Shown: piece after piece, positions 1-41,843 of the stretch | How positions within the stretch are numbered: the first letter of the stretch is position 1 | How the letters are laid out: each line of letters starts with the position of its first letter | Virus record (IMG/VR): IMGVR_UViG_3300043400_000041 | Coordinates: 1-41,843 of that record | Length of the DNA stretch: 41,843 nucleotides | Strand: one strand, 5' to 3' | Source of the DNA: a virus | Lineage: Duplodnaviria > Caudoviricetes | Notes under the pieces: model-generated | What the model was told of the DNA's origin: nothing | Seen by the model: only the letters and a program-made list of their open reading frames with translations | Database searches by the model: none | Made by a program: the position numbers and the translations under genes

Positions 1-151
1 TTCGAGGATGTCACCAAGGGGGATAATCTCCTCCGGCTCTTGGGCGAAGGCGTTGCCGAAGTAGGCGACGGGCGAGGCAAGGGCGGCTTGGGCGGCGGTT
101 GAGGGTGTGGGTGAAGGGAGGGCGGTCATTGGTGGGTGGTGGTGGGGCCTA
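1..151 (+). repeat. Near-identical copy of 41378-41527 (5' end of primase gene plus leader); left anchor of an allelic bubble
   Basis: Direct comparison: one substitution (T99 vs G41476) and a G4 vs G3 run near the end. Confidence 0.97.
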
Positions 152-1401: not shown

Positions 1402-1509
1402 TCGGTGGCCTCGATACAGGTGGATAAAACCTGCCACCGGACGTGGCATTCCATGACGTCGGCCTCAGATAGGGCGTCGTCATAGGTGCCGGAGAACACG
1501 GCGGCCGTG
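1375..1509 (+). repeat. Near-identical copy of 41708-41843; right anchor of the allelic bubble
   Basis: Identical except a G5 vs G6 run. Confidence 0.97.
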
Positions 1510-4209: not shown

Positions 4210-4995
4210 TTAGTAGTCGTAGGCCGCCACGGCGGTGGGCACGGTGCTGGTGGCCTTGGCGCCGACCACGGCGGCGTGCTCGGCCCAGATGCGCAGGCCG
4301 GGAATATCCTGCCGGTTCTTGATGATGGCGCGGATGGCGGCGTTATTGGGCTCGATGGTGCAGAGGTCGGGGTGGGCGACGAAGAGGCGGCGAACGTCCA
4401 CCACCTCGAACTTCCAGTTCTTCCGCACCGAGATGCCTTCCGGCGCGGCGGTGGCCTCGGCCTGGGCGATGGCAGCCTGACGCACTTCGAGGGCGGCTTG
4501 GTTGGCCTCCTGGGCGATCTCGTCCATATCGCTTTCGAGGTGCTTGGTCTCCCCTGCCCTGGCAGCGGCGAGGCGATCGCGTTCGCGTTTCTCCTGCTCT
4601 TCGCGGATGAGGCGTTCCTGCCGCTCGGCTTCGAGGCGGGCGGCGAGGGCTTTTTGCTGCTCGGCGGCTTGGTAGGTGCCGATCAGGGCATTGAGCCGCT
4701 TTTCTTCGGTGACGAGGTCGGCCACGAAGTTCTTGCAGGTCTCGTCGATGGCCCGGCTGGCGGCGAGCACGGGGGCTTTGACGAGGGTGCGGCTGGCCTC
4801 GGTCTGCTTAAGCAGGGCTTTGACGGCCACGAGGGCGGCGGCGGCGTCTTTGACGCTGTCCGCATCGCGCACTTCGCGGCATACCTTGGCGGCGGCAAGC
4901 GCCACGCGGCGGGCCTCGAAGGCGGCGGGGATGATGTCGATCGTGGCGGCCTCGACGGGGCCGCCGAGGGTAAGTTGTTCGGTGCTGAGTGGCAT
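4210..4995 (-). CDS. Coiled-coil phage early protein of the recombination module
   Basis: Long coiled coil, C-terminal WKFEVVD...IPGLRIW pattern common in phage; AGGAGG RBS. Confidence 0.7.
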   Translation of the reverse strand: MPLSTEQLTLGGPVEAATIDIIPAAFEARRVALAAAKVCREVRDADSVKDAAAALVAVKALLKQTEASRTLVKAPVLAASRAIDETCKNFVADLVTEEKRLNALIGTYQAAEQQKALAARLEAERQERLIREEQEKRERDRLAAARAGETKHLESDMDEIAQEANQAALEVRQAAIAQAEATAAPEGISVRKNWKFEVVDVRRLFVAHPDLCTIEPNNAAIRAIIKNRQDIPGLRIWAEHAAVVGAKATSTVPTAVAAYDY

Positions 4996-5025
4996 GGTGC
5001 CTCCTGTAGGGTTGGCGGGCGGGGC

Positions 5026-5811
5026 TTAGTAGGTGTCGGCGGCGGGGGCCGGTGGGGTGGCGGCAGCTTCGGCGAGCGCGGCCTGGGCAAAGCCGAGGGC
5101 CTCGGCGAGACGCTTATCGTCGGCCTTGGGCTTGGCGTTCTTGGCGTGCACGGGCAGCCAGTTGGCGATGAGCTTCTCGATGGCCTCGGGGTCGAGGTCG
5201 CCCAGATCGACGCCGGCGTGTTTGCCGACGTGCACCTTGGTGCGCATCCAGTTCTCGCGGCCTACGGTGCCGCCGTCTTCGGCCACGGGCTGCGCGGCTT
5301 TGCGGTAGCTGGCACCTTCGCCCTGGGCGGAGTCGCCGCCGCCACCGGCTTTCTTGGCGTCGCGGTCCTTCTTGCGGGTGAAGGTGCCGGAGGGGGCGAG
5401 GGGTTCGCCGACCTTGTGCGGGGTGCAGGCGGTGATGTTGGCGTAGGTCTCGCCATTGTCGCCCTGGCTGTGGGTGATGACGACGAAGGCGGGTTTGCCG
5501 ATCAGGGCCTCGGTATCGAACTCTTCGAGCTCCTGCGCAGTGAGGTCGCGGCCAAACCACTGGCGCAGGAATTTACGGAAGCTGGCCTTCTCGTTGAGCG
5601 AGGTGGTGAAGCCGCTAGACCACACGCAGTGGGGACGGGCGGGCTTGGTGCTCTGGTCGAGCAGGTCGATCTCGAAGGTGAGGCGGAATTTTTCCTTGGG
5701 ACCATACTCGGTCTGCTTGGTCTCGGGGGGAGTGACGTCCACGCACACGGCGCGGCCGGTATATTCAGGGCAGGGGGCAAAGTTGCCGGACTTTTTTTCG
5801 CTGAGTTTCAT
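5026..5811 (-). CDS. Phage replication/ssDNA-binding protein (NGO0469-like)
   Basis: SLNEKASFRKFLRQWFGR...ALIGKP...YANI pattern recognised by eye; position in the replication module. Confidence 0.65.
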   Translation of the reverse strand: MKLSEKKSGNFAPCPEYTGRAVCVDVTPPETKQTEYGPKEKFRLTFEIDLLDQSTKPARPHCVWSSGFTTSLNEKASFRKFLRQWFGRDLTAQELEEFDTEALIGKPAFVVITHSQGDNGETYANITACTPHKVGEPLAPSGTFTRKKDRDAKKAGGGGDSAQGEGASYRKAAQPVAEDGGTVGRENWMRTKVHVGKHAGVDLGDLDPEAIEKLIANWLPVHAKNAKPKADDKRLAEALGFAQAALAEAAATPPAPAADTY

Positions 5812-5881
5812 GATGATTTAGGATGGGATGGGTGTTGGATGGGACTGAGGGGAGAGAGGGGACTGATGGGCTCGGGTGGGC

Positions 5882-6793
5882 TTAGAGGTTGGTCTTGGAG
5901 TCGGGGCCTGCGTCGTCGCGGCTGCCTTCGTCGGCGGGCACTTCGACAGTGCCGGAGGCGCTGGCGCGGCGGCCGGAGCGGGCGGCTTTCTTCTTGGCGG
6001 CGGCTTCGGCCTTGGCGGCCTCCATGCTCTTGCGCAGCGTTTCGGCCCGGTCGGCAAGGTGGGCGCGGGTCTTGGTGATCACGTATTCGCTGCGGGGCAT
6101 ATCCTGCACCGCAGGCGTGGTGAGCAGCCACTGGAGGAAGGTCTCGATCTCGCCGGTGATCTCGGCATCGAGGATGCCGTCGAGCCACTCTTCGGCTTCG
6201 TCCTTGGGGCGCAGGTCGTTAGTCTCGGCGTCGCAGAAGGTGGAGAAGAACCAGTCAGCGTAGGCGAGGGCGTCTTCTTCGCGGATGACAAGGGGACCGT
6301 CGGCCATGCCGGCGAGGGCGTCGGCTTTGCTGAGGGCAACTTCGGTGGGGTGCTCGGGCCAGAGCTTGGGTGCGGGCAGGGGGAGCTTTTCGCCAGCGGG
6401 CGCTGGGGCCGAGGCGCGGGCGGCTTCGGCGTCGAGGATTTCCATGACGAGCTGACGGTCGCGCTCGGTCATGTCTTCTTCTGCCACGGCTTCCCCACCC
6501 TCGCGTTTGCGCAGGAGCTTGCGGCCGAGGCGGGGCTGGTCGTATTCCCAGAAGCAGAGGTAATCACGGAGCTCGTAGCCGCTGGCCACGGCTTCGCGGA
6601 GCAGGTCGATCTCGCTCTGGATGGCATCGAGGCGGGCACCGTAGTCTTTTTTGACGCGGCTGAGCTCAGCCTCCGTGATGGTGAAGCGGGTGAACGCCTC
6701 GGCCATGGCCTGCGCCTTGGCGATGTGCTCGGCGGCGGTGTAGTTGTAGCGCAGCTGGCGGCGCGTTTCGTTGGCGGCGAGGGGCTTGCTCAT
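5882..6793 (-). CDS. Hypothetical protein
   Basis: 303 aa protein-like ORF starting inside a GGAGGTGC..ATGA junction motif. Confidence 0.75.
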   Translation of the reverse strand: MSKPLAANETRRQLRYNYTAAEHIAKAQAMAEAFTRFTITEAELSRVKKDYGARLDAIQSEIDLLREAVASGYELRDYLCFWEYDQPRLGRKLLRKREGGEAVAEEDMTERDRQLVMEILDAEAARASAPAPAGEKLPLPAPKLWPEHPTEVALSKADALAGMADGPLVIREEDALAYADWFFSTFCDAETNDLRPKDEAEEWLDGILDAEITGEIETFLQWLLTTPAVQDMPRSEYVITKTRAHLADRAETLRKSMEAAKAEAAAKKKAARSGRRASASGTVEVPADEGSRDDAGPDSKTNL

Positions 6794-7170
6794 TGGGCAC
6801 CTCCTTCGATGGCTGGAGTAGTAACCATTCCGGCGTAGGGGTCGGGCGCAGCCTGGGCGGCGGCGGCACGCGCAGCGGAGAGGGCTTCGCGGCTGGCATG
6901 GATGGCGCGGATCTCGCTAGTGAGCGTGACAGTGGGCTTCCCGTTTAAAAAGAAGTCGTATTCCTTCGACCCGAAGCTCGATTCGAGCTTCTTGGCTCCA
7001 TCGAACAGGCGGATGAGGGTGGCTACTTCGGCGTCGGTGGCGCTCTTGGGGAGCACGTAGCTTTCGTAGCCGATCAGGAGGATGCGCTCGCGTTTGGCGA
7101 CGGGGGCGGAAGGAGCAGCGTTGACGGCTCCGGTGGGTTCTGGCTGGGTGGTGGGCGTATCGTTATTCAT
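6790..7170 (-). CDS. Hypothetical protein
   Basis: 126 aa, ends EGGAQ in the junction motif. Confidence 0.7.
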   Translation of the reverse strand: MNNDTPTTQPEPTGAVNAAPSAPVAKRERILLIGYESYVLPKSATDAEVATLIRLFDGAKKLESSFGSKEYDFFLNGKPTVTLTSEIRAIHASREALSAARAAAAQAAPDPYAGMVTTPAIEGGAQ

Positions 7171-7180
7171 TGTTTAGAGC

Positions 7181-7208
7181 GCCCGCCCCGGTGGCTGCCG
7201 GGGTGGGC
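7181..7208. other. GC-rich intergenic hairpin (possible terminator or leader structure)
   Basis: GCCCGCCCCGG / CCGGGGTGGGC arms around a 6-nt loop. Confidence 0.45.
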
Positions 7209-7291
7209 AAATTGTTAGACCCCTATTTTTGGTGAGGCCGTAGGGTTGGTGGCTTGGCCATTGCCGCCGGGTCTGTAAGTGGGTGGTGGGT

Positions 7292-7759
7292 TCAGGCGTG
7301 GCGTTCGCTGCCGGTGGCGACCAGCAGCCAGCCTTTGCGGGGGCTCTCGATGGCTTCGATGCGGTAGGTGACGCGGGAGTAGGCAGCCAGGGAGGCGAGC
7401 ACGCGGCCTTGGATTTTCTTGCGCGGGAGTGGCGACTTCGCGCTCTCCACCAAGAAAGAGGTGCCTTCGTCGGCAGCGCAGGGGAAGATGGCGAGGCTGG
7501 GCTTGCCCTCTGCGGCGAACACTCGCACGCGGGCGACCTTGGCCAGCTCGGGCGTGGCGGCGATGGCCGCACCGTTGAAGCTGAGCGTGCTCTTGTTCTT
7601 GTTCTCGGCGTTGCCGCGAAAGGTGATGGTAGGCACGCCGCGCGGCTGGTTCTGCGCGGCCACCTCCGTGAATTTAAGGGAGCCGATGATCAGGGCTTCG
7701 GCTCCGGTCTGCGTGGGTGCCGCTGCGGGCGGCGTGGTGGATGTCTTGGCTGGTTTCAT
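7292..7759 (-). CDS. Hypothetical protein
   Basis: 155 aa protein-like ORF in the early operon. Confidence 0.7.
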   Translation of the reverse strand: MKPAKTSTTPPAAAPTQTGAEALIIGSLKFTEVAAQNQPRGVPTITFRGNAENKNKSTLSFNGAAIAATPELAKVARVRVFAAEGKPSLAIFPCAADEGTSFLVESAKSPLPRKKIQGRVLASLAAYSRVTYRIEAIESPRKGWLLVATGSERHA

Positions 7760-7779
7760 TGTTTACGGGAGGAAAAGGG

Positions 7780-8064
7780 TTAGGCACGGGGCGCGGGCGC
7801 GGCTTTCTTGGGCAGGGTGGCGCGGGCGATGCCGTTGATGATGTCGGCCCGGCGGTAGGTACCTTGGGCGACGCGCTTGATGCCGAGCTTCGCCAGGCGG
7901 CGGTAGAGGGCGCTGGGGCTAGCAACCCCGAGCAGGCGCTGGGCCTCGGCGGTGCCGATGACCTCGGGCAGCGGGGCGGCGAGTTGCGCCGGGGTGAGGC
8001 GCAGTTTCTCGGCGACCTTGGAGGCGATGGCCTCGATGTCTTCGAGGGTGAGGGTGTGGCTCAC
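7780..8064 (-). CDS. Excisionase-like/MerR-type HTH DNA-binding protein
   Basis: IGTAEAQRLLGVASPSALYRRL HTH followed by YRRADI wing. Confidence 0.7.
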   Translation of the reverse strand: MSHTLTLEDIEAIASKVAEKLRLTPAQLAAPLPEVIGTAEAQRLLGVASPSALYRRLAKLGIKRVAQGTYRRADIINGIARATLPKKAAPAPRA

Positions 8065-8567
8065 TGGGCACCTCCGTCGCGCTCGGGCTGCGCGGGGGCA
8101 GTGGTGGATTGCTCCACCGCCCTGCCCTCGCCAGTCTCGGAGCTGTCATGACTCCCGAAATTAACGACCTCATTCAACGCGAGGGGCTCCACTTGCAGCT
8201 CCCCGATGTCCATCACCACCTCTCCAATCTCCGCATGCCGCCCTCGCGGGCTGAGTGTGCCTTTGCCATGCTGCGCGAAGAGGTGGACCGACTGGCCAAT
8301 GAAGCGGCTGGCGCCGGGCACGATATACTCGTTACCATGGATGCCGGGCGCTTCCTGGTCTTTACCGTCGGCCTGACCGAGGATAGCGACTTCCTGCGTT
8401 TTCGTGGTGAGGTTGGCGGCTTGCCCGCTGTTGCCTTGGTGCATCCCGGCCAGCTGCACGTGCAGGTGCTGGTTATGCCCAAGATCGTTCCGGTGGGTGA
8501 GCGAAGGATCACCGGCTTCTGGCGCGAGCCCGCGCAAAGCGGGGACGGTGGGTAAGTCGTAGTTCAC
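8061..8567 (-). CDS. ORF spanning exactly between two junction motifs; possibly a read-through/shadow product
   Basis: Starts at the motif GTG and ends DGGAQ in the next motif, but composition looks like an antisense frame. Confidence 0.4.
   Translation of the reverse strand: MNYDLPTVPALRGLAPEAGDPSLTHRNDLGHNQHLHVQLAGMHQGNSGQAANLTTKTQEVAILGQADGKDQEAPGIHGNEYIVPGASRFIGQSVHLFAQHGKGTLSPRGRHAEIGEVVMDIGELQVEPLALNEVVNFGSHDSSETGEGRAVEQSTTAPAQPERDGGAQ
8148..8555 (+). CDS. Antisense moron, DUF6173-like protein
   Basis: GGAG before ATG 8148; C-terminus LVHPGQLHVQVLVMPK...RRITGF resembles DUF6173; TTGCTC-17-CAGTCT upstream. Confidence 0.6.
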   Translation: MTPEINDLIQREGLHLQLPDVHHHLSNLRMPPSRAECAFAMLREEVDRLANEAAGAGHDILVTMDAGRFLVFTVGLTEDSDFLRFRGEVGGLPAVALVHPGQLHVQVLVMPKIVPVGERRITGFWREPAQSGDGG

Positions 8568-8794
8568 CGGGCACCTCCATCGGTGCGCTTACATTCCAGG
8601 GCGGCGGCGTTTTTCTCGCTGATACCCAAGGCCAGACGGCGAGCACGATCGGTGGCGGATCCCTCGTCGGCCTCTTCACCGTTCGCCTCGTCGATGTCGG
8701 CGCGGCTGATGCAGTGGGGGGCGATGGCAATGGCCACAATCACCGCCACGCAGATCACGCCGAAAACGGCGGCGATGGATTGGGCGGCGCTCAC
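8564..8794 (-). CDS. Small membrane protein (N-terminal TM helix)
   Basis: IAAVFGVICVAVIVAIAIA; bounded by junction motifs. Confidence 0.65.
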   Translation of the reverse strand: MSAAQSIAAVFGVICVAVIVAIAIAPHCISRADIDEANGEEADEGSATDRARRLALGISEKNAAALECKRTDGGAR

Positions 8795-9264
8795 AGAGCA
8801 CCTCCTTGCTCTTGCTTAATGGCGGGGCTTTCGGTGTTTCTGAGGTTATCATGGCTGATACTCCGCTGCCCTCCGTGTTGGTTTTCCGTGAGCACGCCGT
8901 CGCTATTACCGACGACGTTCAGGCCCGCGCTGTCTTGCTCGCGCTGGGGGTTGCTGATAAGTTTCAGCCCGAGCAACGCGCACTCGCGCTGAAGGAACTC
9001 GATAAGGGCTCGCTTTCCGAAGCGGGGGTGTGTGGGGTGCGCATATTCACACACCCAACCCACTACCTGGCCGTCTTTGTCTTCGAGCGTTTTGGTGCGC
9101 CCGAGGATAACGGTCTGGCCATCAGCGGATTCTCCAAGGATGTCTTCCCACGTGCCCGCTTCGATGAACTGTTCGCCAAGGCGCATGCGGTTTTCACCGC
9201 CGGGCAACAACTCGGCAGCGTGCGGCGTGATCTGCGACGCGGGGAAAATTGACTCGGCGCTCAC
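8791..9264 (-). CDS. ORF spanning exactly between two junction motifs
   Basis: GTG at 9264 in the motif, ends QGGAL in the next motif; fully overlapped by a plus-strand ORF. Confidence 0.45.
   Translation of the reverse strand: MSAESIFPASQITPHAAELLPGGENRMRLGEQFIEAGTWEDILGESADGQTVILGRTKTLEDKDGQVVGWVCEYAHPTHPRFGKRALIEFLQRECALLGLKLISNPQREQDSAGLNVVGNSDGVLTENQHGGQRSISHDNLRNTESPAIKQEQGGAL
8851..9252 (+). CDS. Antisense hypothetical protein (probable moron)
   Basis: GAGG 5 nt before ATG 8851; 133 aa globular-looking sequence. Confidence 0.55.
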   Translation: MADTPLPSVLVFREHAVAITDDVQARAVLLALGVADKFQPEQRALALKELDKGSLSEAGVCGVRIFTHPTHYLAVFVFERFGAPEDNGLAISGFSKDVFPRARFDELFAKAHAVFTAGQQLGSVRRDLRRGEN

Positions 9265-9449
9265 AGCGCACCTCCCTTCGCGGATTTCAAGTGCCGCTTC
9301 AGAAGCTCTTCGACCAACGCAGAAAGACTGCACTGGTTCTGGTCGCACCACGCCGACGCCGCTTTTTTAACTTTGGCGGAAACAGTCAGGTTTACCTTCG
9401 GTTTCCATTTCTTCTTACGAAGAATAACGAATGAGGGCTGCGCTTTCAC
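9261..9449 (-). CDS. Ribbon-helix-helix protein (DUF6364/CopG-like)
   Basis: KVNLTVSAKVKKAA...SLSALVEELL. Confidence 0.75.
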   Translation of the reverse strand: MKAQPSFVILRKKKWKPKVNLTVSAKVKKAASAWCDQNQCSLSALVEELLKRHLKSAKGGAL

Positions 9450-9865
9450 AGCGCACCTCCCTCGGCTAATGGGCGGCGAGATAGTATCTCTGCTGCTATT
9501 GTATTATTTTTTTCCGATTCAGCATTCCAGATAGCAGCTTGCCGGGCTGCAGCTTCGCTTAGCTTTGTATAATGGGCGGCCTCGCGCACGCGCGCCTGTT
9601 TTTTTGCCTCGGGAGTAAGTAACCCGTGGGCTATCTCAATCAAATCCCCGGTGCTTCTGGCGTCTCCGGTAGAAGCACCGAAATCTAAGTCGCCTGCGTG
9701 TCCACGAAAACTGATATTCTGCACTTTTTTACGGGTGCCGGAGACTGTGATGGTGATGTCTCCAGTAAGCCCCCCACTCGCGTGGATGAAGTCCTTGAAT
9801 AATGATTCCAGCTCTGCGGTCAGTGCAATGAGGGCGGAACTCGCTTGTTTGTTTGGTTTTTTCAC
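9446..9865 (-). CDS. Hypothetical protein
   Basis: 139 aa between junction motifs, visibly more AT-rich. Confidence 0.65.
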   Translation of the reverse strand: MKKPNKQASSALIALTAELESLFKDFIHASGGLTGDITITVSGTRKKVQNISFRGHAGDLDFGASTGDARSTGDLIEIAHGLLTPEAKKQARVREAAHYTKLSEAAARQAAIWNAESEKNNTIAAEILSRRPLAEGGAL

Positions 9866-10149
9866 AGTGCACCTCCAGTCAGGACAAAGGAGCGGCGGGA
9901 CTCGGGGGCAGTGGCAGCGGTCGGCGCGGGGGCGAAGATGCCGGCGCGCTCAGCGACGTCGAGGTGGCGGCGGCGGGCCGTCTCAAAGCTGGCGTAGTCG
10001 CCCGCCGCAACCTCGCGCTCCAAGATCGGAAGCGCCCGCTCCAGCGCGATCTCGATCACCGCCGAGGTGGTGCGGTGCGTCCGGTAGGACAGCGCAGCCA
10101 GGCGCTTTTGCAGCGCGGCGGGGATGCGAGCATTTGGGCTGCGGCTCAC
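9862..10149 (-). CDS. Ribbon-helix-helix protein
   Basis: NARIPAALQKRLAALS...TSAVIEIALE. Confidence 0.7.
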   Translation of the reverse strand: MSRSPNARIPAALQKRLAALSYRTHRTTSAVIEIALERALPILEREVAAGDYASFETARRRHLDVAERAGIFAPAPTAATAPESRRSFVLTGGAL

Positions 10150-11885: not shown

Positions 11886-12213
11886 CGGCGAATACGGGGA
11901 ATCGGGGAGCGTTCCCCAACTCTTACCATATTAAAACTGTCGACACTTTTTATTTGGGCGAAGTTAGGGAAACTACATCAAATCCCCGTATTCCCCGTTT
12001 TCCTTCCTTCTGTACCTCCTAAGAAAAAAGGGAAAAGGGATAGAATAGGGGTCTTTTGGGGTTCATATCGCTATCCACTGGCTCTTTTCGGGCCTTTTTA
12101 GGCCCGATTCCGGAAAGGTTCCGGAATCACTCCGCAATCCCCGTTCTCCCCGCCGCCCTTTCGGCGGCGCTCTGAAAAGGTTCAGGAACTGCTCCGCAAT
12201 CCCCGTTTCCCCG
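11886..12213. other. Candidate replication origin: paired TCCCCG iterons, AT-rich core, three hairpins
   Basis: CGGGGA at 11895 and 11903 facing TCCCCG at 11983 and 11992; further pairs at 12138/12147 and 12200/12208; hairpins 12088-12107, 12106-12128, 12151-12169. Confidence 0.55.
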
Positions 12214-13486
12214 GCTTTTGGCTGTTTTCAGTGCCTTTGATGCTCTTACCAGCGCTCTGGAACGCAGCGAAGAACGCCGCTGAGGCACCGGGCGCGGGCA
12301 GTTGCAGGTAGTGCCGGAAGGCCACGGCGGAAGAATTGCCAGCCTGCCGGGTGACTTCGCTCATGTTGCCCGATTGCTGGAACAGGTAGCTGATGCCGGT
12401 GTGGCGCAGGATGTTTTCTTGCCAGATGCCGGCCGCGACGGAGCGCTTGCGGTTGCGGGAAGGGCCGCGCGTGACGAGGCCCGCAGCTTCGCGCAGGCTG
12501 TCGAAGCGCACCCGCCCCCAGGGTATGCGCCAAGTGGCGCGTTGGTCGGCGGGTATCGCAGCCAGGGCGGCGCGCAGGAGCGGCACCACGCAGGCCGGGA
12601 TGCTCACGGTGCGGTAAGAGGGTGTGCCGCGCTTCTTGGCGCGCACTTCGACCAGCGGCTCCCTGGCATCGAGGCGGATGTCGTCGGCCGCGATGCGCAG
12701 GGCCTCGGCGTGGCGCAGAAAACACCAGCAAGTCAGGACGACGTAGGGGGCGAGCGCGCCCTGGTGCAGGCGGCGGGCGGCATCCATGAGGGCGCGGGCC
12801 TGCGCCGGCGTGAGGATGCGGGGCAGCTCGACGGCCTCGGCGCTGTTTCGCAGGTCGGTGACGTCGATCTGGTCGAAGGGGGAAATCTTCACCCAGCGGC
12901 GCTTCACCCAGAAGCGGCCCCAAGCGCGCAGGATGCGGGCATGGGCCACACGGGTATGGTCGGCGACCTTGTTTGCCCCGCCGTCGTAGCTCTGGCGCAG
13001 GATATAGGTCTCGGCGTGATCGGCGGTGACTCCCTGCACGGTGGTAATCGTGGCCGGAAGCCACTTGATGAAGGCGGCGACACGGTCGTCGTTATTGTCG
13101 ATCGTGCGTTTCTCTCGGCGGCGCTTGCGGGCGTCGGCCTCCCACTCGGTGCGGGCAGTGGTGAGCGTGACCGGCGCCGAGATCGTCATGACGCGGTCGC
13201 TGGCCTCGACGCACTCGACCAGATTGCGCCCCCCTGCCCTCTTCACGGCGGCCTCGGCGTCGCGCAGCTGCTCCTCAGTGAGCCACGTCATGCGCAGCGA
13301 CTGCGACCGATCAGGCGCGGCGATCAGGCGGGCATCGAGTTCGAGGCGGCGGGCGTCGAGCTTGGCGGAATCGCGGAAGCGTTCGCGGATCCGTTCGCCA
13401 TTGATGCGCCCGTAAAGTTCGAAGCTGCCATTTGGCAGCGTGCGGGTATGGAGTTGGTTTTCTGCGTAGCGGGACACATTAGCCAC
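12182..13486 (-). CDS. int: Tyrosine recombinase / phage integrase
   Basis: FLRHAEA (catalytic R), NILRHT, QAGNS...RHY (catalytic Y); adjacent to attP. Confidence 0.92.
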   Translation of the reverse strand: MANVSRYAENQLHTRTLPNGSFELYGRINGERIRERFRDSAKLDARRLELDARLIAAPDRSQSLRMTWLTEEQLRDAEAAVKRAGGRNLVECVEASDRVMTISAPVTLTTARTEWEADARKRRREKRTIDNNDDRVAAFIKWLPATITTVQGVTADHAETYILRQSYDGGANKVADHTRVAHARILRAWGRFWVKRRWVKISPFDQIDVTDLRNSAEAVELPRILTPAQARALMDAARRLHQGALAPYVVLTCWCFLRHAEALRIAADDIRLDAREPLVEVRAKKRGTPSYRTVSIPACVVPLLRAALAAIPADQRATWRIPWGRVRFDSLREAAGLVTRGPSRNRKRSVAAGIWQENILRHTGISYLFQQSGNMSEVTRQAGNSSAVAFRHYLQLPAPGASAAFFAAFQSAGKSIKGTENSQKPGKRGLRSSS

Positions 13487-13786: not shown

Positions 13787-13815
13787 CCTTAATTGTAAAA
13801 ATTTTACAATTAAGG
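13787..13815. promoter_or_regulatory. Perfect AT-rich 14-bp inverted repeat at the end of the late operon
   Basis: CCTTAATTGTAAAA-A-TTTTACAATTAAGG. Confidence 0.6.
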
Positions 13816-34781: not shown

Positions 34782-35018
34782 CTAGCCCAGCCCCGCCTGC
34801 GGAGGTTGATTCCGTGCGTATGGGCTCCAGTCAGGATTGAGCAGCCACCACGCCCACACGTCGCTCCAGCGGGCGAAGCGCCCGCGCCGGATCGAGGCCG
34901 GGCACTGGCGGAGCACGGCGCGCCAGTAGGGCACGGAGTAGCGCACGCCCTGCTCTTCCATGCGGGCCTGCACTTCTTTGGGCGTGAGGTAGGGCTCGGC
35001 TCGGGTGGCGGTGCTCAT
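34782..35018 (-). CDS. Small HTH-like DNA-binding protein
   Basis: YLTPKEV start; ATGA-coupled to terL. Confidence 0.6.
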   Translation of the reverse strand: MSTATRAEPYLTPKEVQARMEEQGVRYSVPYWRAVLRQCPASIRRGRFARWSDVWAWWLLNPDWSPYARNQPPQAGLG

Positions 35019-36808
35019 GGGGATGTATCCTTGTCTTTGGCCGTGGTGGCGGGCTCGGCGATGAGGAAGCCGGCCAGCTGGGCGGCGGCGAGTTGGTAGC
35101 GTTCGCAGTCCCACAAGTGCTCGCCGCACTTGCCGATGGTGCGCCATTCCCAGACGGGCTGCCCGGTCTTGGCGTGCTTGCGGGCGAAGCGCTGGCGGGC
35201 GGCGAGCTGGGCCAAGTAGTCGGGCGGGGCGTCGGCGGCGATGCTCCATGCCGCCGGGTCGCCCCCGGAGCGGTAGTGCCCCAGCGCCTGAGAGGTGAGT
35301 TCTTCGGAGACGGCGAAGACCTTGCAGGAGCGCAGCGCGCTGCCGGGGGCGAGGCTGGCGGGGGTGCCGTTGCCCTCGGCCTTGCGGGCCATGACGCGCA
35401 CCGGCCGCTTGTCGCCCCGGCGATCAATCACGAAGCCACCGGGGGCCTTGACGCCGCGAATGGCGTGCCAGCCCCAGCGGCAGCATTCGCGGTAGACGCG
35501 GTCGGTGAAGTGGGTGGAGTCCACCAGCACGAGGTCGGCGGGGATGGAGTGGGCAAGCTGGAGGTCGCGCACGGATTGCCAGTCATCCACCCGGCCCGCC
35601 CAGCGCAGGCGGGTGCGGCCCTTGGCCCAGAGGCGCACCACGCACCAGAAGTGCGTCATCTGCACGTCCACGGTGAGGAGGGCCACGGCTTCGGGCGCGT
35701 CGGGCCACGGATCGGCGAGGGCGTAGTCGCTCTGCACGCGGGCGCATTGATCTTCCGGCGGTGGCGGCCCCCATGCCTCGGCCAGACGTTTCTGCACAAA
35801 TTCGCGGTGAAGCTCGACCGTGCCGCGGCGAATGGCGGCGCGGGCTTCGAGGAATTCTCCCACCATTTCGGGGAGTTGGGCGTAAGAGGAGGCGAGTGCG
35901 TTCCACCGGAAGCTCTCATGCCCGCGCGCGGCGTCGGGGGCGGGGTCGGTGTAGGCCCCGTTTTTATTGAGGGCATAGCCCACGGCCTCGGTCGGCGGGT
36001 GGGCATGGCCGCACTCGGGGCAGAGGTAGGTGACGGTGGCCTGGGCTTTCTTCATATCCCACTCGTGCTCGCCGCGCCGGGCCTCGGGGCTCCAGGTGAC
36101 GTTGCTCCACTTTGGTGGGTGCCGGTGCTGGCAGTGGGGGCAAAAAAACTGCCACTCCCGGCGGGTGCCGAGGGCGAAGGCTTGGGCGGTCTCGTCATCG
36201 AGCAGGGAGCCGGTGGAAAGCTCCATCACCTTTCGGTTATGCGAGTAGCGGGTGGTGCGCTTGTGGATCTGCGCCAGCATGCCGGGGGCGTATTGCCACG
36301 TCTCATCGAGGAAGAGGTAACGCAGGTGCTTGGATTGGGCTGCGCCCTCGTTGGCCGGCAGGATCAGGAAATCCATGTGCGGGAAGTGCACGCCGAGGGT
36401 GGTCTTGCTGTGGCGGTCGACCAGGTCGAGGTAGGCGCGCACCGGGGCGCAGGCTTGGAGCATGCGCTGGATACGGGTGCGGGAAAACTCCTTGGCCGCG
36501 CTTTCGTGGTGCGCGAACCAGGCGGCGAAGCCGGGTGCGTTCTCGATCAGCCAGAGCAGGCAGATTTCGGCGACGGTGGATTTACCGCCCGCCGCCGCAG
36601 CCATGAGGGTGATGCGCCAGCATTGATCGGTGGGGCGCTGGAAGGCGGCGAGGGGCTCGATAATCCAAGGGGTGTGGGTGGCGGAGAAACGGCCGGGGTA
36701 TGGGGACCAGCCGCCGACTTCCAGGTGTTCGCCTGCCCACTGCTCAAGCGGGCGGGAATCGGCGGGGCGCAGGGCGCGGGCAGTGATGGCGGCCAGATCT
36801 TCGAGCAT
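35015..36808 (-). CDS. terL: Terminase large subunit, lambda GpA family
   Basis: TPW, AAAGGKS, LFLDE, CPHC/CPEC, TVDVQ nuclease motif, EHLWDCE. Confidence 0.93.
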   Translation of the reverse strand: MLEDLAAITARALRPADSRPLEQWAGEHLEVGGWSPYPGRFSATHTPWIIEPLAAFQRPTDQCWRITLMAAAAGGKSTVAEICLLWLIENAPGFAAWFAHHESAAKEFSRTRIQRMLQACAPVRAYLDLVDRHSKTTLGVHFPHMDFLILPANEGAAQSKHLRYLFLDETWQYAPGMLAQIHKRTTRYSHNRKVMELSTGSLLDDETAQAFALGTRREWQFFCPHCQHRHPPKWSNVTWSPEARRGEHEWDMKKAQATVTYLCPECGHAHPPTEAVGYALNKNGAYTDPAPDAARGHESFRWNALASSYAQLPEMVGEFLEARAAIRRGTVELHREFVQKRLAEAWGPPPPEDQCARVQSDYALADPWPDAPEAVALLTVDVQMTHFWCVVRLWAKGRTRLRWAGRVDDWQSVRDLQLAHSIPADLVLVDSTHFTDRVYRECCRWGWHAIRGVKAPGGFVIDRRGDKRPVRVMARKAEGNGTPASLAPGSALRSCKVFAVSEELTSQALGHYRSGGDPAAWSIAADAPPDYLAQLAARQRFARKHAKTGQPVWEWRTIGKCGEHLWDCERYQLAAAQLAGFLIAEPATTAKDKDTSP

Positions 36809-36811
36809 GGG

Positions 36812-37372
36812 CTAGCGGCGGGTGGTCTCCTCCTTGCGTTGATCGGCCAGCACTTGGGCGGTAAACGATTCCTCTGAGAAGTCGGCGAGCAGGGCGCGCA
36901 GGCCCTCGCGGTAGGCGGCGGCCAGATCGGCAGTGGGGGCGCCGCCGAGGCGGGCGGGCAGCTCAGTGACGCAGAGGGCTTCCAGCCGGGCGCGCAGGGC
37001 GGAGGCGAGGGCGGCCCAGCGGGCGCGCACAATGGTGGCGGGCCATGCCTCGCGGCGGCGCAGAGCCAGCTCGATTTCGGATAGCTCGGCATCGGCGGTG
37101 AGCTTGCGGGCGCGGGCCTCGGCGATGCGTTCCGAGACGGCGGCGGAAACAGGGGAGGTGGCACCCGCTTGCAAGGCGGCGCGCTCGCGCCACTCGGGAT
37201 GGTTTTTATCCAACCACGCCTGAATGGGAGCAATGGCGTAGGGGCCTTTGCCCTGGAGTGGAGGGCAGGCGGCGCGGATGCGGGACAGCCGCTCGCGAGA
37301 AAGCCCGATGGCACGCGCCACGGCGGAAAGCGTAGGCGCGCTGGCGGGCGGAGGTGCCGAAGCTGCGGACAT
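36812..37372 (-). CDS. terS: Terminase small subunit (Nu1-like)
   Basis: N-terminal HTH, ARARKLTADAELSEIEL coiled coil; precedes terL. Confidence 0.8.
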   Translation of the reverse strand: MSAASAPPPASAPTLSAVARAIGLSRERLSRIRAACPPLQGKGPYAIAPIQAWLDKNHPEWRERAALQAGATSPVSAAVSERIAEARARKLTADAELSEIELALRRREAWPATIVRARWAALASALRARLEALCVTELPARLGGAPTADLAAAYREGLRALLADFSEESFTAQVLADQRKEETTRR

Positions 37373-37409
37373 GGGCACGCAGTAACACGGCGGGCCGGAT
37401 GCGGTCAAC

Positions 37410-37436
37410 AAAAAAGCCCACCGTGCGGGTGGGCTT
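37410..37436 (-). terminator. Rho-independent terminator ending the early/middle transcript
   Basis: AAGCCCACC-CGCAC-GGTGGGCTT then T-run; TTGACC (-35-like) follows, upstream of terS. Confidence 0.8.
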
Positions 37437-37456
37437 GGGGTGGGCGCTTGGTAATT

Positions 37457-37774
37457 TTACGCGGGCCGGTAATGGCTGATAATCTTGGCCACCTTCTGGC
37501 CGCAGAGCGTGGGGCTGACGGTCCAGCCAAACGGAACCTCGGCGGTGGTGAATGTGGCGCGTTCGCCGTCGCTGAGGCATTCGATGGTGATGCGGAAGCG
37601 AAGCGAGGCCGCAGGCATGGGGCATCGGTCGGCGGCGGCGAGCTCGATGGAGTGATCGATGGGCGCAGTGGCTCGCTCGATACGCTTGCGGGCCTTGGCC
37701 GCGCGCTGGTTGGCGCGCCGCTTCGCATGCTTGCAGTTTCGCTTACGGTGTAGGCTCTTGCGCCTTACGTTCAT
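37457..37774 (-). CDS. Basic hypothetical protein
   Basis: 105 aa, ATGA-coupled to the cassette-1 gene. Confidence 0.6.
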   Translation of the reverse strand: MNVRRKSLHRKRNCKHAKRRANQRAAKARKRIERATAPIDHSIELAAADRCPMPAASLRFRITIECLSDGERATFTTAEVPFGWTVSPTLCGQKVAKIISHYRPA

Positions 37775-38070
37775 TTTTCAGGTGGGGTTATTCTAGTGTT
37801 AGCCAAGGCAGACTCCACGGCGTCGATAGCCGCAGCCCACGGGCAGTGCGACGAGGTGTGCTCGCCAACATCGACGCCGGTCAGCTTGCCGACGCCTGCC
37901 GCGAGTTGGTCGGCATATTCTTCCGCGAGGTCGCGTTCTTGCATCACGGCTTCAAGGTCGCGGTCGAGTCCGGCGACGTGAGTGAGTAGCATTTTCAGCG
38001 CGTCGGCGCTAATAGTTTCCCCGGCGTCTGCCAGAGCATTCATGCGTTTGATATGTTCTTCGGTTATCAT
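37771..38070 (-). CDS. Hypothetical protein (cassette 1 gene)
   Basis: QERDLAEEYADQLA...DVGEHTSSHCPW pattern; C-terminus crosses the GTTAGCC site. Confidence 0.75.
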   Translation of the reverse strand: MITEEHIKRMNALADAGETISADALKMLLTHVAGLDRDLEAVMQERDLAEEYADQLAAGVGKLTGVDVGEHTSSHCPWAAAIDAVESALANTRITPPEK

Positions 38071-38080
38071 AAGAAAATGA

Positions 38081-38187
38081 GGCTAACAAAACGGTGGAGA
38101 GGAACGCGGATGCTCGCTGGCATTCATTCGCGGGAGGTGTCGAGTGGGCGGGAGTCGCTGGCCGCGTCCCTCACCTTTACGTTCGGC
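38081..38187 (+). other. attC-like recombination site 1 (107 bp)
   Basis: R'' GGCTAAC, 5-nt spacer, GGTG[G]AG[A]GG[A]ACGCGG pairing with CCGCGTCCCTCACC, 5-nt spacer, R' GTTCGGC. Confidence 0.85.
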
Positions 38188-38408
38188 ACGGCACACGATG
38201 CGACAGGTTTTGGCGCTTCGATTAGACTGTATCCGGTTCGCCCGTAATTTAGGTGTCGGTTGTCATCTGTCGCCCAAGCGACTGCGTTGCGGTGCGGGCG
38301 CGGCGTTATCCACTCCCACTCGTCGCTGCCGTGGAAAAGGATTATCCATCCCGCCGAACCACCCACTGGAGCCAATTCGGCTGTTTGTCCCAAATCATCG
38401 TTTTTCAT
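38124..38408 (-). CDS. Hypothetical protein (cassette 2 gene)
   Basis: Starts inside attC2 and stops inside attC1. Confidence 0.65.
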   Translation of the reverse strand: MKNDDLGQTAELAPVGGSAGWIILFHGSDEWEWITPRPHRNAVAWATDDNRHLNYGRTGYSLIEAPKPVASCAVPNVKVRDAASDSRPLDTSRE

Positions 38409-38471
38409 ATTCGTAATGGTAAATTGCTATTGAGCTACGATCTCGCCGAATTGCTCACCGGGACGTTCGGC
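38353..38471 (+). other. attC-like recombination site 2 (119 bp)
   Basis: R'' GCCGAAC, TG[G]AGC[C]AATTCGGC pairing with GCCGAATTGCTCA, R' GTTCGGC at 38465. Confidence 0.85.
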
Positions 38472-38701
38472 AAAGACCGCGAAGTGGTGCGAGTGATGGT
38501 GGCCTGGCACTCAGCCAGACCCGTGAGGCAGAGTGCTAAATTTTCCGCACTCATCCCCAGCTCAAGAGTCCCGGTCGTCGTTCTTATTACGATGCGGATT
38601 TCGTCCGATGGGGCGCGGCGAGTTATCGTCAGCACGGCGGGCGAGCCCACCCCGCCGAACAAGTCGCCCGAGGGAACGCGATTATGGATTGCGATGCTCA
38701 T
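38435..38701 (-). CDS. Hypothetical protein (cassette 3 gene)
   Basis: ATG 38701 coupled by ATGA; stops inside attC2. Confidence 0.65.
   Translation of the reverse strand: MSIAIHNRVPSGDLFGGVGSPAVLTITRRAPSDEIRIVIRTTTGTLELGMSAENLALCLTGLAECQATITRTTSRSLPNVPVSNSARS
38654..38680 (+). other. attC-like left arm only (site 3)
   Basis: GCCGAAC-AAGTC-GCCCGAGGGAACGCG; no complementary right arm seen downstream. Confidence 0.6.
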
Positions 38702-39039
38702 AAAGACGGCAGAAGCGCCCGCAGTGTGTCGCGGGTGGCGAAGTAGGAGGCTTTTACGAATACCGTTTTCGAGGCGGTCGTAAGTGTGCGGTAGGTCACG
38801 AACCAGCAGCACGCGGCGTAATCAAATTCCATGTGTTCGATGATGTTCATGGGGTGTAAATCGGGGTCTTTGTTTCCGCAGTGGTGGCAAGTTGCACCCA
38901 CTAGCTTGCCGTCGAGTGCTCCTTCAAGCGCCGGGCCGTGGCAGCTGGGGCACGTGGTCGTTTCGCTATGTGCCCAGGTTACGCAGGCGTGAATAATGCG
39001 GTCCTTGGGGTCGATGGATGCGGTGGGTGGTAGGCTCAT
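38698..39039 (-). CDS. Zn-ribbon hypothetical protein
   Basis: CPSC...CHHC. Confidence 0.65.
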   Translation of the reverse strand: MSLPPTASIDPKDRIIHACVTWAHSETTTCPSCHGPALEGALDGKLVGATCHHCGNKDPDLHPMNIIEHMEFDYAACCWFVTYRTLTTASKTVFVKASYFATRDTLRALLPSL

Positions 39040-39043
39040 GGCT

Positions 39044-41506
39044 TTATGTGGCGTCGATCAGATCCACGCCTTGGAGCACGGCGGCTTTGTCGCCGTTGAG
39101 GCGGAAGGTGTGGCCGCGCTCTTTTAATGCCGCGATAAGGCGGCGGGAACTGCGGTAGCGCGGGATCTCGCCCTCGTCTTCGCACCAGGCGAGGTAGGCT
39201 TTGAGCAGCTTGCCCGCCAGCACTTCGCCGATGGTGCTGCGTTCGGTGCGCTCTTCCATGAAGCGGGCGAGCTGGTCGCTGTCGCCTTGGTATTCTTTGA
39301 CCGCACTCGTCACGATCTCCGGCGGGCGCAGGCCGCCACCGTCGGCCATGTCGAGGAAGCCGCGCAGCGCCCAATTCAGGATGCCGGGAAGCTCGGCCCG
39401 AAGCTCCGCGTGAATCTCGTGCCGGGGGCGGCGCTGGCCCTCGGGGATGGTGTTTAGCCAGGGGATAAGGTGGATGCGCCGCCAGATGCCGTGGTCGGTG
39501 CCTTTGATCTCGGGCTTATGGTTGCCCACGAGGATGAGCTTATGGGTAGGGGAAAAGTTGTAGGGCTTTTCGTAGGGACGGCGGGCAGTGATCATGTCGC
39601 CACCGACCAAGGCCTTGACCGCGCTATCGGAGAGCACGCGGTTTTCCGGGATCTCATCGGTGAAGGCCACCCGTTTGCCTTCGAGCATGGCTTTTTTGTA
39701 GTCGAAGTTGTTGTCGGCCTGCTTGGCGAGCAGCGCCTCGATGCCGATGGTGGTAGCCATTTCGCCGAGCAACATCTGCATGACGCCGGTGTAGGTGCTC
39801 TTGCCGTTGGCCCCTTTGCCGTAGTGAAAAAACAAAACGTCTTTATCGACGTAGCCGGTGAGCATGTAGCCGGTGACGCGGGCGAGGTAGGCGATCAGGG
39901 CCTGATCGTTGCTGAACGCGAAATCAAGGAAAGCCAGCCACTTGGGGCAGGTGGCCTCGGGGTCGAAGCCATAGACGGCGCGGTAGGTGAGTTTATCCTC
40001 GGCGCGGTGCTCGCGGAAGAGGCCGGAGGCGAGGTCTAGCACGCCGTTTTGCACGGCGAAGAGGTGGGGTTGCTGGTCAAATTCCGTCGCCTTGGTGGCG
40101 AGCAGGGAGCGGGAGAGCTCATCGACGGCGGCGAGGTGGGCGCGGGTCTGGAGCTTGGCGATGCGGGCGCGGATGCGCTCGACCTGGGCGGCGCGGGCAT
40201 CGCGCTTTTCTTCTCCGGAGGGGGGCGGGGTCTTGGCGATGTCTTCGCGCAGGGTGGCGATGAGGGCGTTGTAAATCTGCACGGTGTCGGTCGAGACGTC
40301 CATGAGGGTGGCGGCTTGGTCGTCCGGCACCCAGGTCCCGCGATCATAAGTGCGCCAGGACTGGCGCAGGTGATCGTAGAGTTTCTGGCCCTGGCGGCGG
40401 GCGGCGAAGAGGCGGGCGTCGCCGACTTGGGCGGCTTCGAGGCAATCGACGATGAACTCGCGCCCGATCTCCACCGCCTGCACGGCAGGGGGCGGGGTGG
40501 AGAAGGTCTCTTCGTGGCCGGTGTCGGCGGCGTTGCGCGGGCTGTCGGCGAAGCGCAGGCGGCCGGCCCAGATCTTGCGGCGGGCGGCGGCACGCGCATC
40601 GAAGCCGTGCTCTTGGGCGTAGTGCACGAGGGTGCCGATGCCGACTTGCGCGAGGCGGTGGCGGTGTTTGCCGGCATACTCGCCCGGCTTTTCCTCGGGG
40701 CTCCACTCGGCGAGCAGGCGGCAGCCTTCTTCCAGGCTGAGCGCGGACCAGACGGCGGAGGCGATGCGGAGCCAGTCATCGTAGGGCGGGCGGGGTGGCA
40801 CAAAGCGCAGCATCTCTCGTATATCCTCGGCGGTGCGTTCGAGGGGGGGCGACCAGAGCGGGGGGCGGCTGGTGGCGGCGGGGAGCGCAGCGGGGATGGG
40901 GAGCGGGGTGGCGGTGTCGTTTATCCAGAGGTCATCGTCGCAGGAGACGAAGCAGAGGCGGAGCGGGTCCTTGGTGCTTTTGTCGATCTGGATGCCGTAG
41001 GTTTTGAGGAAGTAGCCTTCGGCGGCGGCGAAGCTCTCGGCGTGGCGGGTGCCGTCGATCAGGAGGCCGCATTTGAGGCCGACGCCGGAGGGCGAGATAA
41101 AGCCGAAGATCACATGCGGGTCGGCGTGCAGGGCGGGGGTGATGGTGGCGAGGTCGAGCTGGGGGTTGTCCTTGCGGTCGAAATCGCACTGGAGCACGCC
41201 GGAGTGCTGGGTGAACTTTTTATCCAGTTTCACCTGTGCGTCGCGGGTGATGCACTGGCCGGACATGGTGAAGGCGGGGAGGTGGCGCTTGGCTTCCTGA
41301 TAGCCTTTCTCGTTCTGGCGTTCGAGGTGGCGGCGGATGCGGACCACGGGTTCGCCCCAGATGCCGGCGCGGATGCGTTCGAGGATGTCACCAAGGGGGA
41401 TAATCTCCTCCGGCTCTTGGGCGAAGGCGTTGCCGAAGTAGGCGACGGGCGAGGCAAGGGCGGCTTGGGCGGCGGGTGAGGGTGTGGGTGAAGGGAGGGC
41501 GGTCAT
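39044..41506 (-). CDS. Primase-helicase: BT4734/VirE_N-like + PriCT-2 + D5/P4-family SF3 helicase
   Basis: LPAFTMSG...DFD...SPSGVGLK; YDDWLRIASA...IGTL; Walker A GKGANGKS; GIWRRIHLIPW. Confidence 0.92.
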   Translation of the reverse strand: MTALPSPTPSPAAQAALASPVAYFGNAFAQEPEEIIPLGDILERIRAGIWGEPVVRIRRHLERQNEKGYQEAKRHLPAFTMSGQCITRDAQVKLDKKFTQHSGVLQCDFDRKDNPQLDLATITPALHADPHVIFGFISPSGVGLKCGLLIDGTRHAESFAAAEGYFLKTYGIQIDKSTKDPLRLCFVSCDDDLWINDTATPLPIPAALPAATSRPPLWSPPLERTAEDIREMLRFVPPRPPYDDWLRIASAVWSALSLEEGCRLLAEWSPEEKPGEYAGKHRHRLAQVGIGTLVHYAQEHGFDARAAARRKIWAGRLRFADSPRNAADTGHEETFSTPPPAVQAVEIGREFIVDCLEAAQVGDARLFAARRQGQKLYDHLRQSWRTYDRGTWVPDDQAATLMDVSTDTVQIYNALIATLREDIAKTPPPSGEEKRDARAAQVERIRARIAKLQTRAHLAAVDELSRSLLATKATEFDQQPHLFAVQNGVLDLASGLFREHRAEDKLTYRAVYGFDPEATCPKWLAFLDFAFSNDQALIAYLARVTGYMLTGYVDKDVLFFHYGKGANGKSTYTGVMQMLLGEMATTIGIEALLAKQADNNFDYKKAMLEGKRVAFTDEIPENRVLSDSAVKALVGGDMITARRPYEKPYNFSPTHKLILVGNHKPEIKGTDHGIWRRIHLIPWLNTIPEGQRRPRHEIHAELRAELPGILNWALRGFLDMADGGGLRPPEIVTSAVKEYQGDSDQLARFMEERTERSTIGEVLAGKLLKAYLAWCEDEGEIPRYRSSRRLIAALKERGHTFRLNGDKAAVLQGVDLIDAT

Positions 41507-41524
41507 TGGTGGGTGGTGGTGGGC

Positions 41525-41735
41525 CTACTTGAAGCGCTTGACGAAGGGCTCGGCGCCGGGGGCGTGTTCATCGGAGAGGCCGTGAACGTGGGCGCGGGCG
41601 GCTTCGGCGGAGCGGAAGCGGGCGGGGTCGAGCGGGGGCTCTTGGGCGGCGAGATCATCCCACTTGGTGCGGGGACGGCCCTTCTCATCGAGACGAGTGG
41701 GCGGCGGTATGGCTTGGGGGGCGGCGCGGCTTCAT
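41525..41735 (-). pseudogene. Alternative-allele small gene, frameshifted by one extra base in the G6 run
   Basis: With G5 it reads MKPRRPQAIPPPTRLDEKGRPRTKWDDLAAQ...FVKRFK* (69 aa); as given it stops after 16 codons. Confidence 0.55.
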
Positions 41736-41843
41736 TCGGTGGCCTCGATACAGGTGGATAAAACCTGCCACCGGACGTGGCATTCCATGACGTCGGCCTC
41801 AGATAGGGCGTCGTCATAGGTGCCGGAGAACACGGCGGCCGTG

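What the first reader, a model, noticed from the sequence alone, without database searches (positions are those of the whole stretch)
37798..38701. Integron-type attC cassette array in a phage, with inverted genes that start and stop inside the attC hairpins
Seen: two complete attC-like hairpins (38081-38187, 38353-38471) with conserved AAC/GTT cores, about 5-nt spacers and 2-3 extrahelical bases, plus a third left arm (38654) and a lone GTTAGCC (37798). Each unit's leading site is the exact complement of its own R'': GTTAGCC/GGCTAAC, GTTCGGC/GCCGAAC, GTTCGGC/GCCGAAC. attC1 itself is mismatched (GGCTAAC vs GTTCGGC). Known: this is the signature of cassettes that once existed as circles and were inserted by IntI at G^TT. 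Unusual: the ORFs run opposite to the usual cassette direction, so they are co-oriented with the phage transcript. Genes 2 and 3 begin within their own attC and end within the neighbouring one, so attC arms are translated (LAPVGGSA, RVPSGDLFG, PNVKVRDAA, PNVPVSNSA). No IntI is encoded here. Inference: the phage borrows a host integron integrase to gain, lose and reorder accessory genes, and each event also swaps protein C-termini.
Basis: partly seen in the sequence, partly recalled or inferred. Interest (0 to 1): 0.9.

Follow-up and report, generated by a model that had tools for sequence, protein, structure and literature searches.

The report
Backwards, integrase-less integron platform in phage
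A freshwater phage keeps three small accessory genes as integron-type cassettes facing backwards and docked at a conserved entry site where related phages hold other cassettes, so it likely swaps genes with a borrowed integrase while keeping its operon in frame.

Summary
Both hairpins are attC sites: 53.7 and 36.3 bits, next best 13.0. The third left arm is a truncated site, and no IntI is encoded.

The lone GTT at 37798 is not stray. It lies at a fixed place before a conserved 105-aa gene in 13 of 14 homologous loci, and two otherwise identical phages differ there by one 601-bp cassette cut at G^TT. It behaves as an attI.

In viral arrays the ORFs are reversed in 74 of 80 cassettes; in bacterial controls 12 of 13 are forward. 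The crossover AAC is read as Asn at 102 of 118 sites, with the stop close to the next start. ORF1 occurs with three different tails after that Asn.

Recombination itself, the source of IntI, the host and current activity in this phage are not shown. Phage CALINs are published (PMC9892861). I found the reversed, frame-locked, attI-anchored form in none of eight paper searches. This scan has reported it before on other DNA.

The parts
37414..37436 (-). Predicted intrinsic terminator between the platform gene and terminase small subunit; likely end of the transcript that carries the cassettes
   Evidence: 9-pair stem plus T run; 3 such sites found against 2.0 expected, so weak on its own
37457..37774 (-). 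Conserved 105-aa basic 'platform' gene (RRKSLHR motif) in the position that intI holds in other phages; function not identified
   Evidence: 28 proteins incl. itself; model pLDDT 86 with long N-terminal helix and small beta/alpha domain; no fold or family match
37771..37804 (+). attI-like entry site: degenerate L box GGTTATT 37786-37792, 5-nt spacer, R box G^TTAGCC 37798-37804; on the minus strand it supplies ORF1's tail and a stop overlapping the platform gene's ATG
37799..38181 (+). Cassette 1 (383 bp)
   Evidence: leading core complements own R''; same gene with other tails elsewhere
37771..38070 (-). ORF1, 99 aa, carries a widespread domain of unknown function
   Evidence: 855 relatives at E<=0.001; phrog_6628; P0002 and P0004 share the body up to the crossover Asn
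38081..38187 (+). attC1 (bottom strand = minus); hybrid R''/R'; three extrahelical bases
   Evidence: near-identical hairpins with other neighbours in three short contigs and a sibling in L044
38182..38465 (+). Cassette 2 (284 bp)
38124..38408 (-). ORF2, 94 aa, starts in attC2 and ends in attC1; coding status inferred from the pattern only
   Evidence: no homolog support
38353..38471 (+). attC2 (bottom strand = minus)
   Evidence: each arm matched by a short contig with other neighbours
38435..38701 (-). ORF3, 88 aa, ends in attC2; its ATG overlaps the stop of the upstream gene 38698-39039
   Evidence: weak phrog_1222 match; only itself
38654..38684 (+). Left arm of a third attC whose right arm is lost (eroded distal end of the array)
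   Evidence: a contig of another sample matches 38648-38684 and runs on into sequence like the right-hand part of a site in L004; no fold with the downstream DNA here

Best explanation
This is a phage-borne integron platform without its own integrase: a conserved attI-like site at 37798 heads three attC-bounded cassettes whose genes lie on the strand opposite to bacterial cassettes, and an IntI supplied in trans likely inserts and excises them at G^TT. Shown by sequence: the sites, the reversed polarity, the absence of intI, whole-cassette differences between phages at G^TT, and the reading-frame rule. Under that rule a cassette gene usually has no stop of its own. It reads the crossover AAC as Asn, takes a short tail and stop from the next site, and that stop lies close to the next gene's start inside the hairpin. 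Inferred: this keeps the early operon (primase, cassettes, platform gene, terminator) translationally coupled whatever the cassette order; expression comes from the phage's upstream transcript rather than a Pc promoter; new cassettes enter at the promoter-distal end; the enzyme is a host IntI or the IntI of a co-infecting phage or prophage. The distal end of this array has decayed (third site truncated), so cassettes 1 and 2 would be mobile and gene 3 is probably fixed.
For: attC identity. Entry site: AAC at the same distance (41 nt from the KS codons) in 11 of 11 anchored loci, plus L210 and L264 read by eye; 13 of 14 homologous loci, the 14th lacking upstream DNA; background AAC 0.016 per position; sequence conserved only on the platform side. 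L203, L204 and L205 are near-identical, so 11 loci are independent, 9 of them found after the idea was formed. L205 equals L203 plus one 601-bp cassette with its own attC at exactly that G^TT. The first core complements a downstream R'' in 8 of 11 loci. Polarity: 74 of 80 viral cassettes reversed, 4 forward, 2 ties; 12 of 13 bacterial cassettes forward; the bacterial-only model agrees with my strand calls in all 26 array loci it hits out of 33 compared. Frame: AAC read as Asn at 102 of 118 crossovers with a long open frame, against 21/38/47 across the cassette-internal GTT; stop inside the hairpin 144 of 148 against 86 and 106 in other frames; stop within -8..+10 nt of the next ATG 55 of 80 against 53 of 212; 8 of 9 entry sites end in a stop overlapping the platform gene's ATG. 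Tail swap: P0001, P0002, P0004. The closest relative by primase (L004, 76%) has different cassettes at the same locus. IntI in the platform position in 5 of 44 viral records; G034 has both kinds of platform.
Against: No recombination, circle or excision was seen: the source runs hold the array in one contig with no joint at any GTT (contigs drop rare variants). No close relative spanning this phage's whole array was found (L001 stops short). Of 11 primase relatives only L004 has attC sites behind the primase. attC1 folds weakly (z -1.4) and the bacterial model misses attC2. ORF2 lacks homolog support. In this window the stops of ORF2 and ORF3 lie 53 and 26 nt from the next start, so coupling is loose here. 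The intI-linked entry sites resemble this one only loosely. The viral set was gathered with patterns drawn from window-like sites, so it is not a random sample; two GenBank phages (TJE1, Rctr41k) have forward cassettes. My finder called the wrong strand in Rctr41k. Host and IntI source are unknown.
Confidence: 0.76

Rival explanations
1. A fossil: the array was captured once, from a host or another phage, and is now decaying in this lineage without further recombination.
For: Third site truncated and gene 3 fused to the upstream operon; the same truncated junction occurs in a contig from another study; no variant joints in the source runs; most primase relatives lack an array.
Against: The entry site and both complete hairpins are intact; cores still match their own R'' exactly (3 of 3); phages with the same platform differ by whole cassettes at the entry site while 100% identical elsewhere; bacterial cassettes are forward, so a captured host array would not be reversed.
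Confidence: 0.1
2. The lone GTT is a chance secondary (attG-type) site: host IntI drops cassettes into phage DNA at any GWT and selection keeps those that face with transcription.
For: IntI inserts cassettes at sites defined only by GWT (10.1101/2022.09.11.507474, passages); L008 has a single attC with no platform seen.
Against: The site is fixed in position and conserved in 13 of 14 loci with an L-box-like half. attC polarity fixes ORF direction inside a cassette, so selection on insertion direction cannot explain ORFs reversed relative to their own attC, nor the frame rule.
Confidence: 0.06
3. The recombinase is not IntI: the phage's own tyrosine integrase, another enzyme helped by the platform protein, or homologous recombination between similar hairpins does the swapping.
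For: The window encodes a tyrosine integrase; attC families are alike between phages; the platform protein is conserved and unexplained.
Against: 4 of 5 near-complete phages with this platform show no tyrosine recombinase by two searches; breakpoints fall at G^TT with no flanking identity; true IntI sits at such arrays in other phages.
Confidence: 0.08

Closest known systems
CALINs and integrons in phage genomes (Qi et al. 2023, PMC9892861; parts 1-4 of 7 read, supplements not seen)
   Same: Two or more attC sites in a phage with no intI; 17 CALINs reported; 5 of 6 tested phage attC sites recombined with IntI1, bottom strand preferred.
   Different: Their example TJE1 has forward cassettes (checked here). 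The text I read describes no reversed ORFs, no conserved entry site in integrase-less phages, no frame rule and no cassette differences between near-identical phages; it suggests illegitimate capture.
Bacterial integrons: intI, attI, Pc, attC cassettes (PMC4889954 and PMC8946536, passages)
   Same: attC anatomy, hybrid sites, insertion at an unpaired site, and in 5 viral records an intI pointing away from the array.
   Different: ORFs are reversed relative to attC and so co-oriented with the gene in the intI position; that gene is a 105-aa protein of unknown function; ORFs run through the crossover; no Pc is needed.
ORF-11 of attI1 (PMC8876359, passages)
   Same: A reading frame crosses a crossover and takes its stop from the incoming cassette, aiding translation of the next gene.
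   Different: There it is one short peptide on the top strand at attI1; here it is the cargo genes themselves, on the bottom strand, at most junctions.
attG secondary sites (10.1101/2022.09.11.507474, passages)
   Same: Cassette insertion outside an integron by an IntI acting in trans.
   Different: attG needs only GWT and is not conserved; this site is conserved in sequence and position.

Membership tests
attC site | R''/R' boxes with invariant AAC and GTT | tested here: met
   both complete sites
attC site | Bottom-strand hairpin with L''/L' pairing, unpaired central spacer and extrahelical bases | tested here: met
   attC1 folds only weakly against shuffles (z -1.4)
attC site | Covariance-model hit | tested here: met
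   own models: phage-derived 53.7 and 36.3 bits; bacterial-derived 28.4 bits for attC1, none for attC2; IntegronFinder's model was not available
attC site | Recombined by IntI on the bottom strand | not testable with these tools
   needs a conjugation assay
CALIN | At least two attC sites in a cluster | tested here: met
CALIN | No intI nearby | tested here: met
   0 matches to TIGR02249 in G000; the contig's end repeats suggest a closed map although CheckV estimates 66%
Complete integron | intI gene | tested here: not met
Complete integron | attI: unpaired primary insertion site with R box, 5-nt spacer and degenerate L box | tested here: inconclusive
   comparative evidence strong; IntI binding and recombination untested
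Complete integron | Cassette ORFs on the attC top strand, expressed from Pc | tested here: not met
   ORFs on the bottom strand
attG secondary site | Only a GWT motif, with no conserved context or position | tested here: not met
   conserved context and fixed position in 13 of 14 loci

The most novel reading that the evidence does not exclude
Phages run their own branch of the integron system: a pool of reversed, stop-less cassettes made from ordinary phage genes, a phage-type IntI carried by a minority of phages and used in trans by integrase-less phages through a dedicated attI, and a conserved platform protein that may help recruit or time the integrase. Cassette shuffling would then be a main source of phage accessory-gene mosaicism and a place to catch new cassettes being made.
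Probability: 0.35. Interest if true: 0.92.

Novelty: new variant of a known kind. Interest (0 to 1): 0.77.

Why it matters
Phage genomes are mosaics of small genes with sharp boundaries that are usually put down to illegitimate recombination (my own knowledge). Here the boundaries are integron crossovers, and the grammar keeps an operon in frame after any swap. It extends integrons to a phage-adapted form and gives named sites and a candidate enzyme for a direct assay. How cassettes are created is stated to be unknown (PMC4889954, passage). ORF1's domain is common in proteins that lack an attC-type tail and has three cassette-borne versions here, which makes gene-to-cassette conversion testable by comparison.

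Tried and rejected
Rfam: no match in 35000-41843. The first covariance model had no base pairs and was not used. The genome contigs pattern scan gave 11 loci; 10 had no attC by my finder and one (L047, a 3.2-kb contig in an Acidobacteriota bin) held a reversed array that may be a mis-binned phage piece; none of the 5 of these genomes searched had IntI over cut-off. So the host was not identified. The platform protein was not found in 151 Acidobacteriota genomes, with no positive control, nor in GenBank phages. Fold searches gave only generic helix matches, best Z 4.5, and the C-terminal domain was not folded alone. A likeness to arginine-rich antiterminators such as lambda N is recalled, not tested. 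Pattern scans were mostly chance: 4 of 31 and 1 of 6 loci had attC calls. ORF3 and P0163 searches found nothing new. Reads: only contigs were available, so absence of circles is no evidence. Covariation on alignment A4 is strong but circular, because the sites were picked as hairpins. Paper searches for the reversed or attI-anchored phage form found none (listings only, except the six papers cited); 10.1101/2025.02.12.637893 (passages) did not bear on it. Subscription papers and the supplements of PMC9892861 were not seen and could list reversed arrays.

Full report
Setting. The window is the whole record G000, a tailed temperate phage with nearly all genes on the minus strand: primase 39044-41506, terminase subunits 36812-37372 and 35015-36808, portal, head, tail and a tyrosine integrase at 12182-13486. 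The array lies between primase and small terminase. The integrase has no match to the IntI model TIGR02249, and a six-frame search finds none in the record. Two internal repeats close the map into a circle, so a missing intI is unlikely, although CheckV estimates 66% completeness.

Observation. The coordinates and the three core/R'' matches are as stated. A first hairpin finder ranked attC1 first and attC2 tied second with one other hit. A refined finder, tuned after seeing the sites, calls only these two, with 1 false call in 369 kb of shuffles. A covariance model from 44 sites of other phages gives 53.7 and 36.3 bits, next best 13.0. A model from 34 bacterial sites finds attC1 on the same strand and misses attC2. 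Folding supports attC2 (z -4.5) better than attC1 (z -1.4). The third left arm is real but truncated: a contig from another sample matches it and continues like the right-hand part of a site in L004.

Mobility. ORF1 is a true gene, with 855 relatives. Its two closest relatives share the body up to 'LAN', the crossover, and then carry different tails. attC1-like hairpins occur in three short contigs with other neighbours, identity ending at 38187-38188, and in L044 behind an unrelated gene with the same PNVKVRDAA tail as ORF2. L004, the closest primase relative, has other cassettes at the same locus; 10 further primase relatives have none there. In the 70 adjacent site pairs up to 450 bp apart, the leading core complements the cassette's own R'' in 55, the R'' of the same hairpin in 13, and 9.9 on shuffling. 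No excision or circle was seen, but only contigs were available.

The entry site. The gene left of the array (37457-37774) has 27 homologs. In viral contigs its homologs are preceded by an unpaired AAC at a fixed distance, with conserved sequence on the gene side and unrelated sequence beyond. This holds in 13 of 14 loci, counting the window; L206 has no upstream DNA; three loci are near-identical. On the top strand the site reads as a degenerate L box, 5 nt and GTT, the layout of the Shewanella attI quoted in PMC9892861. L203 and L205 are 100% identical over the 13.7 kb compared except for one 601-bp cassette, with its own attC, inserted at this G^TT. Arrays of 1 to 11 model-scored sites, all on one strand, lie upstream in the 9 of these loci searched with the model that have upstream DNA.

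The enzyme. Of 44 viral records searched, 5 encode a full-length IntI (4 over cut-off). In each it sits where the platform gene sits here, a few tens of bases after an unpaired AAC and co-oriented with the cassette ORFs. G034 has one array ending in intI and another ending in this site plus a platform-gene homolog. None of five near-complete phages found through the platform gene has IntI or a PF00589 match, and one has a weak match to this phage's integrase. The recombinase therefore likely acts in trans. attI sites are proposed to co-evolve with their integrases (PMC8946536, passage), so a particular IntI clade is expected; whether host or phage supplies it is open.

Polarity and frame. Among 192 viral loci, 80 distinct cassettes of 120-800 bp with at most one core mismatch were scored: 74 reversed, 4 forward, 2 tied. 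In 40 regions beside bacterial intI genes, 12 of 13 were forward. Strand calls agree with the bacterial-only model in all 26 of 33 compared array loci that it hits. The finder erred in Rctr41k, which, like the published TJE1, is forward. At 142 sites with enough flank, 118 have a long open frame across the crossover and 102 read AAC as Asn; across the cassette-internal GTT the three frames are 21, 38 and 47. The Asn frame stops inside the hairpin in 144 of 148 sites and within -8 to +10 nt of the next start in 55 of 80 (other frames 53 of 212); exact ATGA overlaps are 24 of 80 against 36 of 212. At the entry site 8 of 9 loci end in a stop overlapping the platform gene's start. In this window that overlap holds at the entry site and at gene 3's start, while ORF2 and ORF3 stop 53 and 26 nt before the next start. 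The viral sample was gathered with window-like patterns and is biased to this family.

Verdict. It works like an integron and meets the CALIN definition, but it is not a complete integron (no intI, reversed ORFs). Phage CALINs with IntI1-active attC sites are published (PMC9892861). The reversed, frame-locked, attI-anchored form was in none of eight searches. Earlier notes of this scan describe it in other genomes. I read the notes on polarity and the Asn frame before running those tests; the entry-site result and the coupling test came before the matching notes. None was listed for this genome or this platform gene. Untested: recombination, expression, ORF2's coding status, the host and the platform protein's role.

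Noticed in passing
window 1-1509 and 41378-41843: Two repeats (1-151 = 41378-41527; 1375-1509 = 41708-41843) mark an assembly bubble: upstream of the primase the phage has either a 181-bp stretch, as in L004, or a 1.2-kb stretch with an N6 DNA methylase gene (126-866) and one more gene. It looks like a population polymorphism; the ends are not attC sites.
   Followed up: partly
window 38070-38126: An ATG directly after ORF2's stop opens an 18-codon frame through attC1 whose stop overlaps ORF1's start, a possible translational relay (read).
   Followed up: no
window 38698-39039: A 113-aa Cys-rich gene without attC heads the array; contigs in run X4 show a 91% homolog followed by a different gene start at 38708, and another that skips 38856-39044.
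   Followed up: no
L004 8692-9260: Same locus in a relative: one intact attC, one short degenerate attC and a partial deletion that joins a cassette remnant to the right half of another site.
   Followed up: partly
L203/L084 whole locus: About 7 kb of reversed cassettes (11 model-scored sites), including a methylase-like ORF and one apparent plus-strand cassette.
   Followed up: partly
L265 (KX853513, Rctr41k) 4680-10101: GenBank phage with an IntI-like gene annotated xerD, followed by about six attC-like sites with forward ORFs on the same strand as the integrase.
   Followed up: partly
L008 12761-12893: A single strong attC with reversed flanking genes directly behind the large terminase of a distant relative.
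   Followed up: no
window 11886-11997, 12114-12213, 13787-13815: Inverted and direct repeats around the phage integrase, possibly attP and arm sites.
   Followed up: no
L268 (G021) 6369-7411: Three unusually long attC-like hits (about 190 nt) in the second array of an IntI-encoding phage.
   Followed up: no
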